Below, one piece after another: positions 25,609 through 36,208 of a stretch of DNA of 64,000 nucleotides (the stretch's first letter is position 1; each line of letters opens with the position of its first letter). The notes under the pieces are model-generated. The model was not told the DNA's origin. It saw nothing but the letters and a program-made list of their open reading frames with translations, and did no database searches. The position numbers and the translations under genes were made by a program. Where the stretch lies: the NCBI RefSeq assembly GCF_055900595.2, contig NZ_CM148325.1. One strand, given 5' to 3'.

Positions 25609-25685
25609 TGGACCGCCACCGGGGACTCGAACCTCGCACACTCAACTTAAAGGGTTGACGCTCTTTCCTGATGAGCTAGTGGCGG
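25609..25685 (-). tRNA. tRNA, identity uncertain (anticodon loop CCUUUAA)
   Basis: Acceptor CCGCCAC/GTGGCGG, D-arm GCTC..GAGC, anticodon stem TCAAC/GTTGA, T-loop TTCGAGT, 3' CCA encoded; position 33 is C rather than U. Confidence 0.65.
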
Positions 25686-25687
25686 TT

Positions 25688-25762
25688 GGTGGCCCTTGCT
25701 GGATTTGAACCAGCGACCTGGCGATTATGAGTCGCTCGCTCTCACCACTGAGCTAAAGGGCC
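25688..25762 (-). tRNA. ileZ: tRNA-Ile2 (CAU anticodon; ileX/ileZ-like)
   Basis: Reverse complement GGCCCTTTAGCTCAGTGGTGAGAGCGAGCGACTCATAATCGCCAGGTCGCTGGTTCAAATCCAGCAAGGGCCACCA is a near-match to E. coli ileX; T-arm GCTGG-TTCAAAT-CCAGC. Confidence 0.85.
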
Positions 25763-28897: not shown

Positions 28898-29053
28898 TTA
28901 CTCCTCAGGTTCGTAAGCTGTGAAGACAGCGACCTCCGTCTGGCCGGTTCGGATTCGTACCTCGCAGAGGTCTTTCCTCGTTACCAGTGCCGTCACAATG
29001 ACGGTAATACAGATGACGATCAGGGCGACTAACATCGCCTTTTGCTGCTTCAT
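28898..29053 (-). CDS. hok: Hok/Gef-family type I toxin (in-frame upstream extension to 29110 is mok-like)
   Basis: MKQQKAMLVALIVICITVIVTALVTRKDLCEVRIRTGQTEVAVFTAYEPEE resembles Hok (single TM, conserved C...EVA.F.AYE); inverted repeat GGCGAGGGATTTCTCCCTCGCC in the 3' region. Confidence 0.85.
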   Translation of the reverse strand: MKQQKAMLVALIVICITVIVTALVTRKDLCEVRIRTGQTEVAVFTAYEPEE

Positions 29054-29264
29054 AGCCTGCTTCTCCTTGCCTTTCGGCACGTAAGAGGCTAACCTAGATT
29101 TGCCGTTCATAGATTGAGCCTCAGATTAATGTTAAGCGTCTTGCCGGACGCGTAATGTTAACTGGGGCTTTTCTCTATCTGCCTTTTGGGGTTCATGCCT
29201 GAGACAGATAGCCTCAAGCACCCGCTGCAATTCTACTTAACTCTCCTTTTCCCGCAAACCGTTT

Positions 29265-31703: not shown

Positions 31704-32159
31704 TTACTCACAGCCCCCCTGATAATTTCCCTGATAAAACGCCAGCACGCGCTGCATAACTTCGCTCTTCCTGCACTCGCAACAGATTATGTTCTGACGC
31801 CTGTCGTAGCGGCGTATTTCTCCGTCTGGTAATGACCAGATAAGGTCAGGATCAACCACAACCGGTTTTTTCACCTTTTCCCTTGATAGTTTTTTGCGGG
31901 CGTTTTGCCAGTCTTTACGCGCCTGCTCAGACGGGAATAATCCGTAGCCTGAATTGTATACATCACCACTGGCAACCAGCTCTCTGGCAAGAACGCTCAG
32001 CAGATATCTTGTCGCACCTGTTTTCGCTTCCAGTTGTCGTAACGTCTCGCGCCCGCTCTGTCGCACGAGTTCGACAACCTGCCTCTTAATTTTTTCCCGC
32101 TCTTCCTGTGTAAATACTTTTTTCACAAGTCCTCCTGAAAAATCTCCTTCACAATTCAT
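31704..32159 (-). CDS. hypothetical phage protein (ren/nin position)
   Basis: 151-aa ORF directly downstream of the P-like gene. Confidence 0.5.
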   Translation of the reverse strand: MNCEGDFSGGLVKKVFTQEEREKIKRQVVELVRQSGRETLRQLEAKTGATRYLLSVLARELVASGDVYNSGYGLFPSEQARKDWQNARKKLSREKVKKPVVVDPDLIWSLPDGEIRRYDRRQNIICCECRKSEVMQRVLAFYQGNYQGGCE

Positions 32160-32821
32160 ACAAAACCAGCCGCTTTCCGGCGTTCATACTCCTGTTTCAG
32201 CAACTCAATTGGCGTTGGTCCCGACGGGCGTTTGGGGGCAGCCAGTTGTCGCCGGACTGGCGGAACGCTGAGGCCCATACCAACATGCTTTGACCATTTC
32301 GTCAGTTGCCGTTCTGCAAACCGTTTTAACTCCCCTTCGGTCATCTGGCGTTCAATCCCCTTTGAACGCATCTCGAGGCATATGTGATACAGCACAGGCT
32401 GAGACCACGGGTATTTATCGCTTCCGTCGTATCGCCAGGACTCATTGCGCCAGCGTCGGTACTCCTCCATCACAGCCCCCACCGTCAGACCGAATGGATT
32501 GGCCCCGCTTTCCGGAATCAGTGCCACAAACTCAGCCAGGTCAGGAGGCCATGTTTCACCCGCCCGGCAGCGGTCCATGCACTGGCGGCAGACCTGCCGG
32601 ATTTGCTGCTCAGTCATCGCGCCAATCTGTGCAATCCAGAGCTTCGAAGGTGCGGCCCCGTTCTTCCGGGTCCAGCGGTCCGAATAAACCTCCCCCATGA
32701 GTTCCCACAGCTTCCAGGCTGTTTCCGTCGCTGATAAATCCGTTTTCACGTTCCCACTGCTCACGTGCTGCCCGAATTTCCTGAACTGCCCGTGATGCGG
32801 TGCCACCTGGTGCTGCTGCAT
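32156..32821 (-). CDS. P: replication protein P-like (helicase loader)
   Basis: Segments AMTEQQIRQVCRQC...WPPDLAEFVALI and DKYPWSQP align with lambda P; position after O. Confidence 0.75.
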   Translation of the reverse strand: MQQHQVAPHHGQFRKFGQHVSSGNVKTDLSATETAWKLWELMGEVYSDRWTRKNGAAPSKLWIAQIGAMTEQQIRQVCRQCMDRCRAGETWPPDLAEFVALIPESGANPFGLTVGAVMEEYRRWRNESWRYDGSDKYPWSQPVLYHICLEMRSKGIERQMTEGELKRFAERQLTKWSKHVGMGLSVPPVRRQLAAPKRPSGPTPIELLKQEYERRKAAGFV

Positions 32822-33650
32822 GGTTCACCCCCTTGCTGACTGGTTTAACCTGCGCCCTGACGTGATTTACGTGACGGGCGAATTTCTGCTCCCACTGAAC
32901 CTGTGTGAACACTTTCCCCTCCGCCATCCAGTAATCCCGGAAGGCGGCAAGTTCAGCAGGTGTAAATTCCGGTTCCGGCAAAGCCGCTCCCCACAACGCA
33001 GCCCGCCGTCGAAAATCCAGCGACGGATGCCAGCCATCGGTCATCGGAAATTTTCCGATGGGTTCGCTCAGGCCATCCAGGAATACAGGGGGGGCTGCCT
33101 GTAACGACAAAACTTCCTGCTCACTGATCGGAGCACTCTCGCGTGTGTTATGTGTGGGGTTTAGATCTTTGGGTTCCTTTGGGTTCCGTGATCCGTTTTT
33201 GGGTGTCTTTGATGGAAAATTTGGGTGTTTTTGGTTATTTTCCATGCAGCTAAGAGTTCCGTTTTTGGGTCTGTTTTGTGCTGAAACATAACCATTTTCG
33301 GTACTGTTTTTATTAACAGCACCAATTTTACCCTCCTTTAAAGACTCCCGTTTTTGGGTGTATTCAGGCTCTGCAACGCTTTCTTCTACACCGATAAGTC
33401 GGTACACCACGATTTGCTTTGTTCGGCCTTTTCTCTCACCGGTATCAACAATTAACCCAATCTCCATCAGGTGTCGTAAGCTGTCCTGCACAGTCTTTTT
33501 GTTCAGTTCCGTTACTTCTGCCAGTGCAGATACAGACGGGTATGCACACAAATCGGCACCGCACATATCAGCAAGCCAGGTCAATACTGACTTACTGGAT
33601 GAACTGCCGGTTTTCACCTTTTTAGCCCATCGTAGTGCATCGATGCTCAT
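32610..33650 (-). CDS. O: replication initiator O-like protein (origin-binding; iterons inside gene)
   Basis: ORF 32610..33725 with likely start MSIDALRWAKK; N-terminal HTH; internal iteron array; 3' ~210 bp overlaps P in another frame. Confidence 0.75.
   Translation of the reverse strand: MSIDALRWAKKVKTGSSSSKSVLTWLADMCGADLCAYPSVSALAEVTELNKKTVQDSLRHLMEIGLIVDTGERKGRTKQIVVYRLIGVEESVAEPEYTQKRESLKEGKIGAVNKNSTENGYVSAQNRPKNGTLSCMENNQKHPNFPSKTPKNGSRNPKEPKDLNPTHNTRESAPISEQEVLSLQAAPPVFLDGLSEPIGKFPMTDGWHPSLDFRRRAALWGAALPEPEFTPAELAAFRDYWMAEGKVFTQVQWEQKFARHVNHVRAQVKPVSKGVNHAAAPGGTASRAVQEIRAAREQWERENGFISDGNSLEAVGTHGGGLFGPLDPEERGRTFEALDCTDWRDD
33150..33370. repeat. origin-like iteron array plus AT-rich segment inside the O gene
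   Basis: Repeated TTTGGGT(G/T) motifs (tttgggttcc, cgtttttgggtgtc, aatttgggtgtttttgg, cgtttttgggtctg, cccgtttttgggtgt) followed by AT-rich ttttattaacagcaccaatttt. Confidence 0.7.
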
Positions 33651-34173
33651 ACGAACTCCTGGCAGACATTTGTTTATCTGCAAAGTAATATTGATATTGC
33701 TGACGATACGCATGCTTGAAAGCAATAGCTTTTTCTATAAGCTCGTCAGTCTCACGTTCCACAACAGATGGATCCGCAAAAAGCAGCCCGGACTCCACCA
33801 CATCGCCATATTCTTTGTTTAACCCGGCGATCATGTACGTAATGCTTTTTCCGTCAGTAATTTCACAATACAACCTGAAATCGCTGATCCGGATAGCCTC
33901 CATAATTGCCGGAATCAGCGCCGTGAATTTTTCCCGCTTATCCCTGGTGTCGATAGCTTTCCAGCGTTCGAATATCTTCACCCGGTTAACGCCCAGCGCC
34001 CGTTGATCAACCTCGCCATCATTAAACGTGACGCGTTGAACATCGATGTTCGGGCGTTCTTTCAGAGCCCAGAATGCTTCCGTGATTAATATCGTCGCCT
34101 GCTCCTGTGTCATTCCTGGTCGGCATACCCAGGCATCCAGAGCCTCACAAACCTGTTCAGGGGTGATTTTCAT
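33622..34173 (-). CDS. hypothetical early-operon protein at the cII position
   Basis: 183-aa ORF between the cro-like gene and O. Confidence 0.5.
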   Translation of the reverse strand: MKITPEQVCEALDAWVCRPGMTQEQATILITEAFWALKERPNIDVQRVTFNDGEVDQRALGVNRVKIFERWKAIDTRDKREKFTALIPAIMEAIRISDFRLYCEITDGKSITYMIAGLNKEYGDVVESGLLFADPSVVERETDELIEKAIAFKHAYRQQYQYYFADKQMSARSSYEHRCTTMG

Positions 34174-34384
34174 TGTTCAACCGCCCCGCCCGCTTCGTCT
34201 TACGATATTCGTCATAAACTTTGGGGTCGTACTGAAGTTCCCCGCCAGATGCCTCTTGCAGGCGCATCGCGCGACCTTCAGGAACCAGTTCTCCCCATTG
34301 AGAAACAGCAGATGGATCAACACCAGCAGCTTTCGCTACTTTGGCTTTCGTCCCATAAAAATTAATTACGTCTGATTTAAACAT
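34157..34384 (-). CDS. Cro-like / YdaS-type HTH protein
   Basis: Short HTH protein (GTKAKVAKAAGVDPSAVSQW) transcribed divergently from the repressor; start could be 34411. Confidence 0.7.
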   Translation of the reverse strand: MFKSDVINFYGTKAKVAKAAGVDPSAVSQWGELVPEGRAMRLQEASGGELQYDPKVYDEYRKTKRAGRLNNENHP

Positions 34385-34461
34385 CACCCCTCCAAAGTTG
34401 AGTTTTCTCAATGGTAATCACTCAAGGAATCTCAAGCCAAGGGTTATTAAGATATCTAAAT
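34385..34461. promoter_or_regulatory. immunity-region divergent promoter/operator (pR/pRM-like)
   Basis: 77-bp intergenic between divergent cro-like and repressor genes; palindrome TTGAGTTTTCTCAA at ~34397-34410. Confidence 0.6.
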
Positions 34462-34869
34462 ATGAACGAGAAAACTTTAGGTCAACGAATTAGAGAAAGA
34501 CGCAAACAGGTTGGTTTAAGTCAAAACGATTTAAGCAAAGCTGCTGGCGTATCTGGCTCATCAATTTCACTATGGGAAAGCGACCATACAGCCCCGCGCG
34601 GGCAAAATTTGCATCGCCTGGCTGAGGTATTGCAATGTTCACCAACTTGGATACTGTTTGGTGACGAGGATAAAACACCAGATCCACCAGTTGCACTCAA
34701 CAGCGCCTTAGACTTATCGGAAGATGAGTTGGAGATGTTGCGATTGTATCGCGCACTTCCAAAATCAGAGCAGCAAGCACAAATCAGCGAACTCCGTGCC
34801 CGCGTTGAGAATTTTAATCGCCTATTCACCGAGCTACTAGAAGCTCGCAAACGTAACAAACATCAATAA
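34462..34869 (+). CDS. CI-like repressor (XRE-family HTH, no peptidase domain)
   Basis: Start MNEKTLGQRIRERRKQVGLSQNDLSKAAGVSGSSISLWE (HTH_XRE signature); divergent from the cro-like gene. Confidence 0.8.
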   Translation: MNEKTLGQRIRERRKQVGLSQNDLSKAAGVSGSSISLWESDHTAPRGQNLHRLAEVLQCSPTWILFGDEDKTPDPPVALNSALDLSEDELEMLRLYRALPKSEQQAQISELRARVENFNRLFTELLEARKRNKHQ

Positions 34870-35420: not shown

Positions 35421-36208
35421 CAGACCCCTCAGAGGATACCACCTCGCCTGACGTGGTTAAAAGCAGGCACACAACACGAAAGCGCACGGCGAGGTAGCTG
35501 GTTCATATATAGCCTGTCGTTAAATTTTCGTCGACCGTGCGCTTCCGGTTGTGGCACTCCGCGAAATGGCGCGGCGGTAAGCATGGCGGGGTTCCCTTCC
35601 CCTTGAGGACACCGGGTTGTCAGGTTGACCATGCGCCTGAGTGACAACCCCGCTGCAACGCCCTCTGTTATCAATTTTCTGGTGACGTTTGGCGGTATCA
35701 GTTTTACTCCGTGACTGCTCTGCCGCCCTTTTTAAAGTGAATTTTGTGATGTGGTGAATGCGGCTCAGCGCACGCGGAACAGTTAAAACCAAAAACAGAG
35801 TTATGGGTGGATTCTCTGTATCCGGCGTTAATTGTTAACTGGTTAACGTCACCTGGAGGCACCTGGCACCGCATCAACAAAGTTCACTTCGGTGATGAAA
35901 GGTAAGAGAAAATGTTGAATGTAGCTATTGAAAACCAGTACGGGTGGAATTATAGTGCACCTGCACCTCATAAAACGGGTGCCGGGCGTGGAAACCCGAA
36001 AGTTACTCGAGCGCATAACCGCGCCGAAGCGGTTTTTTTATGCGTAATGCACAGCCACATTCAGATAATGGTGGGGCGTGCAGGGCAGCTGCAAGGCTGG
36101 CCGGGTTCTCGAGTGACCGGTATTTCCACCCCTGTACGTCTCGCCACCCTTATGGTCGTGGAAAGCCTCGGTGGTGAGTTAATTAACTTAACACTTGAGG
36201 ATGCCATC

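What the first reader, a model, noticed from the sequence alone, without database searches (positions are those of the whole stretch)
32610..33370. O-like initiator with internal iterons and an unusually long overlap with the P-like gene
The iteron-like TTTGGGT(G/T) array plus AT-rich segment lies inside the O-like gene, as in ori-lambda. The O reading frame stays open ~210 bp into the P-like gene in a different frame. In lambda O and P abut without overlap, so this may be a true overlap, a fused or extended O C-terminus, or a frameshift sequencing error.
Basis: seen in the sequence. Interest (0 to 1): 0.35.

Follow-up and report, generated by a model that had tools for sequence, protein, structure and literature searches.

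The report
Overlapping phage initiator and helicase-loader genes
In this E. coli prophage the replication-initiator gene carries its own origin repeats, and its last 212 bases also encode, in another reading frame, the start of the helicase-loader gene; the overlap is conserved across many enterobacteria and standard annotation removes it by shortening the loader.

Summary
Both observations are real. All genes lie on the minus strand.

**Genes.** The initiator is 32610-33650 (346 aa). It has an O-like HTH N-domain, a linker, a DnaT-like domain and a 68-aa tail. The lambda-P-like loader ORF is 32156-32821 (221 aa). It starts 212 nt before the initiator's stop, in the +1 frame.

**Origin.** The linker holds six ACCCAAA-core repeats at 33168-33360 in 35-40% GC DNA. 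These repeats occur only in loci with this initiator N-domain (48/48, against about 50 loci with none).

**Overlap.** It is not a sequencing error or a pseudogene.
- An overlap of about 185-227 nt in the same frame relation is present in all 22 related loci examined, from at least 10 genera.
- The loader ATG is always present and is preceded by GGAGG, or a close variant, in 19 of 20 loci.
- Each frame's wobble positions lose variability inside the overlap.
- Each ORF stays open far more often than chance allows.
- The overlapped loader residues 26-67 form three confident helices of the lambda-P domain II fold.

RefSeq's 153-aa loader, which starts at Met69, is very probably truncated.

**Pattern.** Structured segments alternate with disordered ones: the initiator's helix lies over the loader's disordered N-terminus, and the loader's domain II lies over the initiator's acidic disordered tail.

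**Verdict.** This is a known type of replication module with a long dual-coding overlap that I did not find described. No expression data were available.

The parts
32610..33650 (-). Initiator gene ('O-like'), 346 aa plus stop. It has an N-terminal HTH domain, a linker containing the iterons, a DnaT-like domain and a 68-aa tail.
   Evidence: ORF. Pfam DnaT PF17948 scores 63.3 bits (cut-off 25) at residues 201-267. HTH_36 scores 20.8 bits, below its cut-off. PHROG 'replication initiation O-like' families match residues 1-169. RefSeq annotates the same 346-aa CDS in the 99.9% identical E. coli GF4 locus.
33168..33360 (-). Origin-like segment inside the initiator's linker-coding region. It has three long iterons (CACCCAAAAACGG on the coding strand) at 33193-33205, 33259-33271 and 33348-33360. 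It has three short copies (ACCCAAA) at 33168-33174, 33178-33184 and 33220-33226. The DNA is AT-rich, most so at about 33272-33347.
   Evidence: clustering, P about 1e-15; GC 35-40%. The motif is present in 48/48 loci with this initiator N-domain type and absent from about 50 loci with other N-domains that share the same P module. Citrobacter locus L020, which has a diverged homolog of this N-domain, has CCCAAAAACGG(GA) 4-6 times at the same place.
32817..33071 (-). DnaT-like C-terminal domain of the initiator (residues 194-278).
   Evidence: NCBIfam DnaT model positions 82-166 of 179 match, E 1e-26. PDB DnaT chains 6aep, 9zbt and 4ou6 match, E 1e-19 to 3e-20.
32610..32821 (-). Dual-coding overlap of 212 nt. 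It encodes initiator tail residues 277-346 plus the stop, and in the +1 frame P residues 1-70 plus two bases of codon 71.
   Evidence: The overlap is 200-224 nt, always +1, in 20 loci, and about 227 and 185 nt in two more distant loci. Evidence comes from dN/dS patterns, ORF-openness simulations and wobble-site suppression in 62 haplotypes.
32156..32821 (-). Lambda-P-like helicase-loader gene, full form, 221 aa plus stop. The ATG is at 32821-32819.
   Evidence: Pfam Phage_lambda_P scores 54 bits (cut-off 26). PHROG 109 'P-like helicase loader' aligns residues 19-220 to profile positions 22-235 of 236. The AF2 model has pLDDT 87 with helices from residue 26. Foldseek top hits are lambda P chains of 9oa1, probability 1.0, over 200-220 columns.
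32826..32834 (-). Shine-Dalgarno-like AAGGGGGTG, 4 nt upstream of the P ATG, inside initiator codons Lys-Gly-Val.
   Evidence: Read from the sequence. GGAGG, or a close variant (GAGG, GGGGG, AGGGG), lies at the equivalent place, about 5-10 nt before the ATG, in 19 of the 20 loci. L019 has only GGGAG about 9 nt upstream.
32696..32698 (-). In-frame ATG of P Met42. It is an alternative or secondary start, and is the one RefSeq uses for 180-181-aa homologs in other genera.
   Evidence: It is present in all 20 loci. However, it lies inside predicted helix 26-46, and the conserved residues A35-W36-x-L38-W39 lie upstream of it.
32615..32617 (-). ATG of P Met69 in the ATGACTGA junction. This is the start chosen by RefSeq/PGAP (153-aa P) and is probably not the main start.
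   Evidence: annotation. The ATG is missing in L017, L020 and L022. Starting here would remove three helices of domain II.

Best explanation
This is the replication module of a lambdoid (Rac/PPompW-like) E. coli prophage. It follows the lambda O/P plan, but with a genuinely dual-coding junction.

**How the module most likely works (inferred by homology).**
- The initiator's N-terminal HTH domain binds the six ACCCAAA-core iterons, which lie in the part of its own gene that encodes the inter-domain linker.
- The neighbouring AT-rich DNA melts.
- The initiator's C-terminal part (DnaT-like domain, a conserved helix and an acidic disordered tail) recruits the P-like loader carrying host DnaB.

**The junction (supported by comparative evidence).**
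- The loader is translated from its own Shine-Dalgarno and ATG at 32821, which lies 212 nt inside the initiator gene in the +1 frame.
- Across the overlap the two proteins take turns at being constrained.
- In the first half, the initiator's helix (ASRAVQEIRAAREQWEREN) is conserved. It lies over the loader's variable, disordered N-terminus, the counterpart of lambda P domain I.
- In the second half, the loader's strongly conserved first three helices of domain II lie over the initiator's poorly conserved, disordered but persistently acidic tail.

**Modularity.** The tail-plus-P unit travels as one block beneath many different initiator N-domains. The overlap therefore physically links the initiator's C-terminus to its loader.

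**Not shown.** No expression data were available. The tail's partner is inferred.
For: **Conservation of the arrangement.**
- It is conserved in 20 loci from Escherichia, Citrobacter, Klebsiella, Pluralibacter, Phytobacter, Pectobacterium, Prodigiosinella, Samsonia and others. The overlap is 200-224 nt and always +1.
- It is also present where P is only 40-43% identical.

**Start site.**
- The P ATG (Met1) is in 20/20 loci. GGAGG or a close variant lies about 5-10 nt upstream in 19/20.
- The initiator residues at that ATG vary only as [H/N/D][A/V/E], which is exactly what keeping xAT-Gxx allows.

**Substitution patterns (Nei-Gojobori).**
- For P residues 36-69, P-frame dN/dS is 0.07-0.15, like the P body (0.08-0.10). 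The initiator frame there has pN/pS of 1.4-2.9, with synonymous change crushed (pS 0.013 against 0.26 outside the overlap).
- For P residues 1-35, the initiator frame is the more constrained one (pN/pS 0.17-0.72, against 0.49-0.87 for P).

**Polymorphism in 62 haplotypes.**
- The variable fraction of initiator wobble sites is 0.56 outside the overlap, 0.29 in its first half (p=0.009) and 0.11 in its second half (p=5e-6).
- For P wobble sites it is 0.57 outside, 0.23 in the first half (p=3e-4) and 0.38 in the second half (p=0.058).

**ORF openness under synonymous-codon resampling.**
- Given the P protein, the initiator frame stays open in only 1-11% of simulations per lineage (product over 12 lineages 3e-17).
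- Given the initiator protein, the P frame stays open in 20-57% (product 2e-5).
- For the second half alone, the initiator frame stays open in 10-35% (product 9e-9). The tail there is more acidic than chance (Stouffer Z -5.4).

**Structure and homology of P.**
- The AF2 model shows residues 1-25 disordered and helices at 26-46, 48-54, 60-67, 71-86 and 95-105, with pLDDT above 90.
- Foldseek aligns the model to full-length lambda P in 9oa1.
- Distant P relatives (20-40% identity) share residues about 25-105.
- In lambda P, domain I is a disordered lasso and domain II (about 30-119) is a folded domain that assembles the loader ensemble (PMC12661323).

**Tail as a module.**
- The tail is kept in two loci with no detectable DnaT domain: L019, whose N-domain is Phage_rep_O, and L022, whose type is unknown.
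- A DnaT-type initiator paired with a classical lambda-type P (phage TL-2011b) has a short tail and only a 29-nt overlap.

**Origin.**
Against: - There are no ribosome-profiling, proteomic or genetic data, so use of the Met1 start is inferred.
- RefSeq/PGAP annotates a 153-aa P here and 180-181-aa forms in other genera.
- BLASTP against lambda P aligns only from residue 86, and the Pfam match starts at residue 60. N-terminal homology to lambda P therefore rests on profile and fold evidence.
- P residues 1-35 evolve almost neutrally at the amino-acid level (pN/pS 0.5-0.87).
- Constraint from the initiator frame on the second half of the overlap is only marginal in the polymorphism test (p=0.058).
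- The 12 'lineages' multiplied in the simulations are not fully independent.
- The single-chain AF2 model of tail, linker and P left most of the tail at pLDDT 32-40. No pairwise-error output was available, so binding of the tail to P is untested.
- Iteron binding and origin activity are inferred from pattern and co-variation only.
Confidence: 0.8

Rival explanations
1. The RefSeq annotation is right. P starts at Met69 (ATG 32617) in an ATGACTGA stop/start junction, giving an 8-nt overlap and translational coupling. The 68 upstream codons of the P frame are an untranslated accident of the initiator's sequence.
For: - PGAP calls a 153-aa 'replication protein P' here and in many E. coli genomes.
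- The ATG..TGA junction is present in most loci.
- Given the initiator protein, the +1 frame stays open by chance in 20-57% of simulations per lineage.
Against: - The Met69 ATG is absent in L017, L020 and L022.
- P-frame residues 36-68 have dN/dS of 0.07-0.15, while the initiator frame there shows pN/pS above 1.
- Initiator wobble sites are 2-5-fold less variable in the overlap.
- Residues 26-67 form three confident helices of a domain shared with lambda P and with relatives at 20-40% identity.
- An ATG is conserved at Met1 in 20/20 loci, with a GGAGG-like Shine-Dalgarno in 19/20.
Confidence: 0.05
2. P starts at the invariant Met42 (ATG 32698), giving an 89-nt overlap. This matches RefSeq's 180-181-aa homologs in Citrobacter, Klebsiella and Salmonella. 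Alternatively, Met1 and Met42 are both used, giving two isoforms.
For: - This ATG is present in all 20 loci.
- Many database proteins of 177-181 aa start here.
- Some loci have a GGAGG/GGGAGG-like sequence upstream of it.
- P residues 1-35 are poorly conserved.
Against: - Met42 lies in the middle of predicted helix 26-46, which has pLDDT above 90.
- Conserved P-frame residues (A35-W36-x-L38-W39) lie upstream of it, where the initiator frame is variable.
- Initiator wobble sites are already suppressed in the first half of the overlap (p=0.009).
- The Shine-Dalgarno at Met1 is closer to consensus and more widely conserved.
- Met is also a normal conserved core residue, so its invariance does not require a start function.
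Confidence: 0.12
3. The long initiator reading frame is an artefact: a frameshift sequencing error, or a recent mutation that removed an ancestral stop (a pseudogene-like extension).
Against: - The same junction occurs in 906 complete E. coli genomes at 80% or more coverage, in 80 viral contigs and in 22 diverged loci.
- The initiator stop sits 11-19 codons before the WPPDL motif in every locus.
- The tail carries conserved motifs (TASRAVQ.I.AA...W.R; EPLDPEER; D..DW.DD).
- Chance openness of the frame is 3e-17 over 12 lineages.
Confidence: 0.01
4. The overlap serves programmed +1 ribosomal frameshifting, which would make an initiator-loader fusion protein, rather than (or as well as) independent initiation of P.
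For: - P is in the +1 frame of the initiator.
- Shine-Dalgarno-like sequences inside genes can stimulate +1 shifts (established for prfB; from my own knowledge).
- PHROG 15931 (482 positions) matches both proteins, and fused database entries exist (P0058).
Against: - There is no conserved slippery or hungry-codon site, and no in-frame stop next to the Shine-Dalgarno.
- The conserved element is an ATG at correct Shine-Dalgarno spacing.
- RNA folding around the site is unremarkable (z = -0.9).
- The fused database entries are singletons (one member sequence each).
Confidence: 0.02

Closest known systems
Bacteriophage lambda O-P-ori-lambda replication module
   Same: - Gene order is cro, (cII-position gene), initiator, loader.
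- The origin iterons and an AT-rich segment lie inside the initiator gene, in the linker between the DNA-binding N-domain and the C-terminal domain (for lambda; here).
- The loader belongs to Pfam Phage_lambda_P and has the lambda P fold, including domain II.
- The initiator's C-terminus and the loader are exchanged together as a module.
   Different: - The initiator is not a Phage_rep_O family member by Pfam, and its C-terminal half is DnaT-like rather than the lambda O C-domain.
- The iteron is ACCCAAAAACGG-like. There are 3 long and 3 short copies with irregular spacing, against lambda's four 18-bp repeats.
- The O/P overlap is 212 nt in the +1 frame, against 4 nt (ATGA) in lambda.
DopC/DopE pair and its lambdoid relatives (Brezellec et al. 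2017, PMC5509034)
   Same: The two-gene architecture is the same: an HTH_36 N-domain plus a DnaT C-terminal motif protein, followed by a Phage_lambda_P-domain protein.
   Different: - DopCE is a chromosomal, domesticated pair, reported to lack iterons.
- The pair here is prophage-borne and has iterons.
- That paper does not mention any gene overlap: the word 'overlap' occurs 0 times.
Phage TL-2011b initiator / P pair (NC_019445 gp12/gp13)
   Same: The initiator has a near-identical DnaT-like domain (about 85% nucleotide identity over window 32855-33162) and is followed by a P-family loader.
   Different: - The initiator ends 29 aa after the DnaT domain.
- The loader is the classical lambda type (Pfam positions 2-162, 188 bits).
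- The overlap is only 29 nt.
- This shows that the long overlap belongs to the tail-plus-P subfamily and not to DnaT-type initiators in general.
Long same-strand overlapping (overprinted) genes of viruses
   Same: - Two frames are both under selection.
- Synonymous variation is suppressed.
- An ordered segment in one frame is paired with a disordered segment in the other.
- Long overlaps are regarded as under-annotated in prokaryotes (abstract of PMC9927249).
   Different: - Here the overlap joins the ends of two adjacent genes with known functions that work in the same pathway. It is not a novel ORF nested inside a gene.
- Which frame is the younger can be inferred only for the second half. 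P domain II is ancient, so the initiator's acidic tail is the overprinted part there.

Membership tests
Lambda O initiator family (Pfam PF04492 Phage_rep_O) | Significant match to the Phage_rep_O N-terminal domain model. | tested here: not met
   No PF04492 hit at E<=0.01. Only HTH_36 at 20.8 bits (cut-off 25) and weaker HTH models match. PHROG 'replication initiation O-like' profiles 391, 678, 8540 and 345 do match residues 1-169 at E 5e-12 to 1e-7. The protein is therefore O-like in function and possibly in fold, but not a Pfam family member. Locus L019 shows a true Phage_rep_O domain attached to the same tail and P.
Iteron-type origin embedded in the initiator gene (ori-lambda type) | A cluster of at least 4 direct repeats, more than chance, in the linker-coding part of the initiator gene. 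| tested here: met
   Six ACCCAAA-core copies lie in 193 bp, three of them extended to 13 nt. Poisson P is about 1e-15. They encode residues about 97-161, between the HTH and DnaT-like domains.
Iteron-type origin embedded in the initiator gene (ori-lambda type) | Adjacent AT-rich (unwinding) segment. | tested here: met
   GC is 35-40% at 33160-33340, against 55-63% in the flanks. Here the AT-richest stretch lies between the first iteron and the remaining ones, not strictly to one side as in lambda.
Iteron-type origin embedded in the initiator gene (ori-lambda type) | Repeats co-vary with the initiator's DNA-binding domain (specificity pairing). | tested here: met
   48/48 loci with this N-domain carry 2-4 CCCAAAAACGG copies. 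About 50 loci with other N-domains and a P module of 95% or more identity carry none. Some other N-domain types carry their own repeats, for example TGTCACGAC x5 and AAACAGGGA x4.
Iteron-type origin embedded in the initiator gene (ori-lambda type) | Initiator binds the repeats, and the fragment supports O/P-dependent replication. | not testable with these tools
   This needs EMSA or footprinting and a plasmid replication assay.
DnaT C-terminal domain (Pfam PF17948 / NCBIfam NF002770) | Match above the Pfam gathering score, and similarity to solved DnaT structures. | tested here: met
   PF17948 scores 63.3 bits (cut-off 25) at residues 201-267. PDB chains 6aep, 9zbt and 4ou6 match at E 3e-20 to 5e-19. 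The protein is not an equivalog of DnaT itself: NF002770 scores 93.5 bits against a cut-off of 201.
Lambda P helicase loader (Pfam PF06992) | Match above the gathering score. | tested here: met
   54 bits against a cut-off of 26, residues 60-188 matching profile positions 32-161. PHROG 109 'P-like helicase loader' gives E 4e-59 for residues 19-220.
Lambda P helicase loader (Pfam PF06992) | Four-part lambda P architecture: disordered N-terminal lasso, folded domains II and III, and a C-terminal lasso helix. | tested here: met
   The AF2 model (pLDDT 87) has residues 1-25 disordered, helical domains at 26-105 and 114-181, and a C-terminal helix at 204-217. Foldseek aligns it to lambda P chains 9oa1_Z, Y and V at probability 1.0 over 200-220 columns. 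The lambda P domain scheme is from PMC12661323.
Lambda P helicase loader (Pfam PF06992) | Binds and loads host DnaB. | not testable with these tools
   Inferred from homology only.
Genuine dual-coding (overlapping) gene pair | Both ORFs stay open across diverged relatives more often than chance. | tested here: met
   Both ORFs are open in 20/20 loci. Chance products over 12 lineages are 3e-17 for the initiator frame and 2e-5 for the P frame. For the second half alone the product is 9e-9.
Genuine dual-coding (overlapping) gene pair | Conserved start codon with a ribosome-binding site for the internal gene. | tested here: met
   The ATG is present in 20/20 loci. GGAGG or a close variant lies about 5-10 nt upstream in 19/20; L019 has only GGGAG.
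Genuine dual-coding (overlapping) gene pair | Synonymous-site variability of each frame is suppressed within the overlap. | tested here: met
   Initiator wobble sites: 0.56 outside against 0.20 in the overlap (p=7e-6). P wobble sites: 0.57 outside against 0.30 (p=3e-4). For P in the second half alone the test is marginal (p=0.058).
Genuine dual-coding (overlapping) gene pair | Direct evidence that both products are made from the overlap. | not testable with these tools
   No ribosome-profiling or proteomic data were available. Literature searches found none for this locus.

The most novel reading that the evidence does not exclude
The 212-nt overlap may be more than compact packing. It may encode, in two frames of the same DNA, the two elements that dock the initiator to its loader.

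- On one side are the initiator's conserved helix and its acidic disordered tail.
- On the other side are the loader's N-terminal lasso and the first helices of domain II.
- If so, recombination in these highly mosaic phages could never separate a matched initiator-loader interface.
- Ribosomes translating the initiator through the loader's start site could also set the O:P ratio.

This would be a case of interacting partner surfaces that are co-encoded by overprinting.
Probability: 0.2. Interest if true: 0.7.

Novelty: new variant of a known kind. Interest (0 to 1): 0.5.

Why it matters
**Annotation.** RefSeq/PGAP names a 153-aa 'replication protein P' here, and 180-181-aa forms in other genera. 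That removes 41-68 residues, up to three helices of domain II, from a protein present in about a quarter of complete E. coli genomes (1343 of 5426 have a match). One metagenome gene caller dropped the initiator gene altogether. Structural, biochemical or synthetic work based on those entries would use a truncated loader.

**Biology.** Well-supported long same-strand overlaps between two genes of known function are few in bacteria and their phages. This one is old, since P identity falls to 40% while the overlap is kept. It shows a clear alternation of ordered and disordered segments in the two frames. It also ties the initiator's C-terminus to its loader as one unit that recombination cannot split, beneath at least six different initiator N-domains.

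**Testability.** Single-base changes can be silent in one frame and disruptive in the other. That gives a tractable way to study how overlapping genes evolve and how initiator-loader specificity is maintained in mosaic phages.

**Known parts.** The origin itself (iterons plus AT-rich DNA inside the initiator gene) is an ordinary member of a known kind. The HTH_36 plus DnaT_C / P architecture has been described before (PMC5509034).

Tried and rejected
- **BLASTP of the 221-aa P against lambda P** aligned only residues 86-193. Phmmer against PDB sequences aligned residues 72-194. Pairwise sequence comparison therefore could not show N-terminal homology. Profile evidence (PHROG 109), distant homologs and fold evidence were needed.
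- **NCBIfam** has no model that matches P.
- **A single-chain AF2 model** of initiator tail, (GGGS)7 linker and P, built on a 15-row paired alignment, was meant to test docking of the tail on P. It gave pLDDT 63.8. Only the helix AVQEIRAAREQWEREN was confident and the rest of the tail scored 32-40. No pairwise-error or contact output was available, so the test is inconclusive.
- **Promoter and terminator scan** of 31900-34600 found no internal promoter for P, and nothing above shuffle expectation.
- **RNA folding around the P start** was unremarkable (z = -0.9). There is no support for a frameshift stimulator or a regulatory hairpin.
- **PHROG 15931** (482 positions) matches both proteins with overlapping profile ranges. 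I judged it a mixed or fused cluster and did not use it as evidence.
- **Six literature searches** found no description of this overlap. The library covers open-access papers only, so absence is not proof.
- **Locus L106** (P 31% identical) was too short to show the upstream gene. The outer phylogenetic limit of the overlap was therefore not fixed.
- **The sequencing-error or pseudogene reading** was considered and rejected on the comparative data.
Full report
**What is there**

The region is the early-right operon of a lambdoid prophage, read on the minus strand.
- A cI/DicA-like repressor lies at 34411-34869 (+).
- A Cro/YdaS-like gene lies at about 34157-34384 (-).
- A YdaT-family gene lies at 33622-34173 (-).
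- The initiator gene is 32610-33650 (-) and the P-like gene is 32156-32821 (-).

The window is 99.9% identical to E. coli GF4 (NZ_CP172217) and about 96% identical to the 'PPompW' prophages of STEC. Of 5426 complete E. coli genomes, 1343 have a match to this 1.65-kb segment, and 906 cover at least 80% of it.

**The initiator**

The 346-aa product has four parts.
- The N-terminal HTH region scores below Pfam's cut-off for HTH_36 (20.8 against 25). It matches PHROG 'replication initiation O-like' families over residues 1-169.
- A low-complexity linker follows.
- A DnaT-like domain covers residues 194-278 (Pfam PF17948 at 63 bits; solved DnaT structures at E about 1e-19 to 3e-20).
- A 68-residue tail ends the protein.

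There is no Pfam Phage_rep_O hit. 'O-like' is therefore a fair functional label but not family membership. The same two-gene architecture (HTH_36 plus DnaT C-terminal motif, then a P-domain protein) was described for DopC/DopE and its lambdoid relatives (PMC5509034).

**The origin**

On the coding strand the linker-coding DNA contains CACCCAAAAACGG three times. In plus-strand coordinates these are at 33348-33360, 33259-33271 (1 mismatch) and 33193-33205. The core ACCCAAA occurs three more times, at 33220, 33178 and 33168.
- Six of the nine TTTGGGT heptamers in the 64 kb window fall within 206 bp (P about 1e-15).
- GC drops to 35-40% across the segment.

The strongest evidence that these are iterons is co-variation across about 100 related loci that share a nearly identical P module.
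- All 48 loci with this initiator N-domain carry 2-4 copies of CCCAAAAACGG.
- All loci with other N-domains carry none.
- Some other N-domain types carry their own repeats in the same place.
- A diverged Citrobacter homolog of this N-domain (L020) has CCCAAAAACGG(GA) 4-6 times.

This is the lambda arrangement, and it is ordinary. Binding and origin activity are inferred.

**The overlap is real**

The initiator's TGA is at 32612-32610. The P-frame ORF opens at ATG 32821, so the two share 212 nt, with P in the +1 frame.

Public annotation avoids the overlap.
- RefSeq starts P at Met69 (ATGACTGA junction, 153 aa).
- A DDBJ record starts it at Met82 (140 aa).
- RefSeq uses Met42 (180-181 aa) in other genera.
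- Some NCBI records do carry the 221-aa form.

I collected 20 loci from Escherichia, Citrobacter, Klebsiella, Pluralibacter, Phytobacter, Pectobacterium, Prodigiosinella, Samsonia and others, plus 80 close viral contigs.
- Every locus has the overlap, at 200-224 nt and always +1.
- Two further loci whose P is only 40-43% identical have it too, at about 227 and 185 nt.
- Sequencing error and pseudogene are excluded.

**Where P starts**

- The Met1 ATG is present in 20/20 loci. GGAGG or a close variant (GAGG, GGGGG, AGGGG) lies about 5-10 nt upstream in 19 of them. It is AAGGGGGTG here, at 32826-32834.
- The initiator residues across that ATG vary only as [H/N/D][A/V/E]. That is exactly what preserving xAT-Gxx permits.
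- The Met69 ATG is missing in three loci.
- Met42 is invariant, but it sits inside a predicted helix, and conserved P-frame residues (A35-W36-x-L38-W39) lie upstream of it.

**Both frames are under selection, and they alternate**

*Pairwise Nei-Gojobori counts.*
- In the second half of the overlap (P residues 36-69), the P frame has dN/dS of 0.07-0.15, like the rest of P (0.08-0.10).
- In that same half, the initiator frame has pN/pS of 1.4-2.9, because its synonymous sites (P codon position 2) hardly change. Its pS is 0.013, against 0.26 in the non-overlapped initiator.
- In the first half (P residues 1-35, initiator residues 277-311), the initiator frame is the more constrained one (pN/pS 0.17-0.72, against 0.49-0.87 for P).

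*Polymorphism among 62 haplotypes.*

| Wobble sites | Outside overlap | First half | Second half |
|---|---|---|---|
| Initiator frame | 0.56 | 0.29 (p=0.009) | 0.11 (p=5e-6) |
| P frame | 0.57 | 0.23 (p=3e-4) | 0.38 (p=0.058) |

Values are the fraction of wobble sites that vary.

*Resampling of synonymous codons.*
- With the P protein held fixed, the initiator frame stays open in only 1-11% of trials per lineage (product over 12 diverged lineages 3e-17).
- With the initiator protein held fixed, the P frame stays open in 20-57% of trials (product 2e-5).
- For the second half alone, the initiator frame stays open in 10-35% of trials (product 9e-9).
- The tail there is more acidic than the P sequence would give by chance (Stouffer Z -5.4).
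- The lineages are not fully independent, so these products overstate significance. The direction is consistent in every lineage.

**Structure explains the alternation**

The AF2 model of the 221-aa P (46-row alignment, mean pLDDT 87) has the following parts.
- Residues 1-25 are disordered.
- A helical domain covers 26-105, with helices at 26-46, 48-54, 60-67, 71-86 and 95-105 and pLDDT above 90.
- A second domain covers 114-181.
- A C-terminal helix covers 204-217.

[quoted passage not shown] The model matches the four-domain scheme of lambda P: disordered N-terminal lasso, ensemble-forming domain II at about 30-119, then domains III and IV (PMC12661323).

Relatives with only 20-40% identity share residues about 25-105, with the motif W..M.EIY...W....G..P...W......LT..Q...........WPP.L.EF. 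P domain II is therefore ancient. Starting at Met69 would delete three of its five helices.

In the tail-linker-P model, the initiator segment AVQEIRAAREQWEREN is a confident helix (pLDDT 79-89) and the rest of the tail is disordered (32-40). So the initiator's helix lies over P's disordered lasso, and P's folded helices lie over the initiator's disordered acidic tail.

**Modularity**

The tail-plus-P block sits beneath at least six initiator N-domain types. These include HTH_36-like, DUF1376, Phage_rep_O (L019) and several unnamed types. Two of the 20 loci (L019 and L022) keep the tail with no detectable DnaT domain.

In phage TL-2011b, a DnaT-type initiator is paired with a classical lambda-type P. 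It has a short tail and a 29-nt overlap. The long overlap is therefore a property of this tail and P subfamily.

In lambda, the C-terminal part of O is the P-binding part, and N-terminal fragments of P interfere with O (PMC6022878). It is therefore plausible, but untested, that the overlapped DNA encodes the two docking partners.

**Verdict**

- The finding is confirmed, and the 'true overlap' reading is supported.
- The origin is an ordinary member of a known kind.
- The conserved dual-coding junction of about 200 nt between initiator and loader is a variant I did not find described in the searched literature. It is hidden by current RefSeq annotation.
- The main gap is the lack of expression data. 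The frame-specific point mutations listed under next steps would settle it.

Noticed in passing
window 33622-33650: The initiator ATG (33650) lies 29 nt inside the end of the upstream YdaT-family gene (33622-34173, minus strand). This is a second, shorter out-of-frame overlap in the same operon. RefSeq annotates it the same way in E. coli GF4.
   Followed up: no
window 35677-35728 (+), 35963-36039 (+), 36064-36151 (+): Rfam matches above gathering score to DicF antisense RNA, the isrK Hfq-binding sRNA and C4 antisense RNA. They lie just beyond the repressor gene. This is consistent with a Qin/Rac-like (dicA-dicC-dicF) immunity region.
   Followed up: no
window 29048-29223 (-): A full-length match to the sok antitoxin RNA of a hok/sok-type toxin-antitoxin locus (112 bits against a gathering score of 59). 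It lies downstream of the replication genes.
   Followed up: no
window 25609-25762 (-): Two adjacent tRNA genes, tRNA-Lys (UUU) and tRNA-Met (CAU), one base apart.
   Followed up: no
L104 1681-2727 and 2501-3199: In a metagenome contig whose P is 40% identical, the collection's gene caller called P but left the whole 348-aa DnaT-type initiator ORF uncalled. This left a 720-nt 'empty' gap. The likely cause is the 227-nt overlap.
   Followed up: partly
L107 (phage TL-2011b, NC_019445) 1152-2724: The DnaT-like domain of this phage's initiator is about 85% identical in DNA to the window's, but it is joined to a different N-domain, a short tail and a classical lambda-type P. This indicates a recombination joint right at the end of the DnaT domain.
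   Followed up: partly
L008/L006, L010/L014, L019 (initiator genes): Other initiator N-domain types carry their own internal repeat sets at the equivalent linker position: TGTCACGAC x5 (in L008; L006 shows 3 copies of a related 9-mer), GGAAGGGAA x3 and AAACAGGGA x4. These are presumably their own iterons.
   Followed up: partly
window 32156-32250 (P C-terminus): The P C-terminus has the motif GPTPAQLL..EY.RRKAAG, conserved across genera and predicted as a helix after a disordered stretch. [quoted passage not shown]
   Followed up: no
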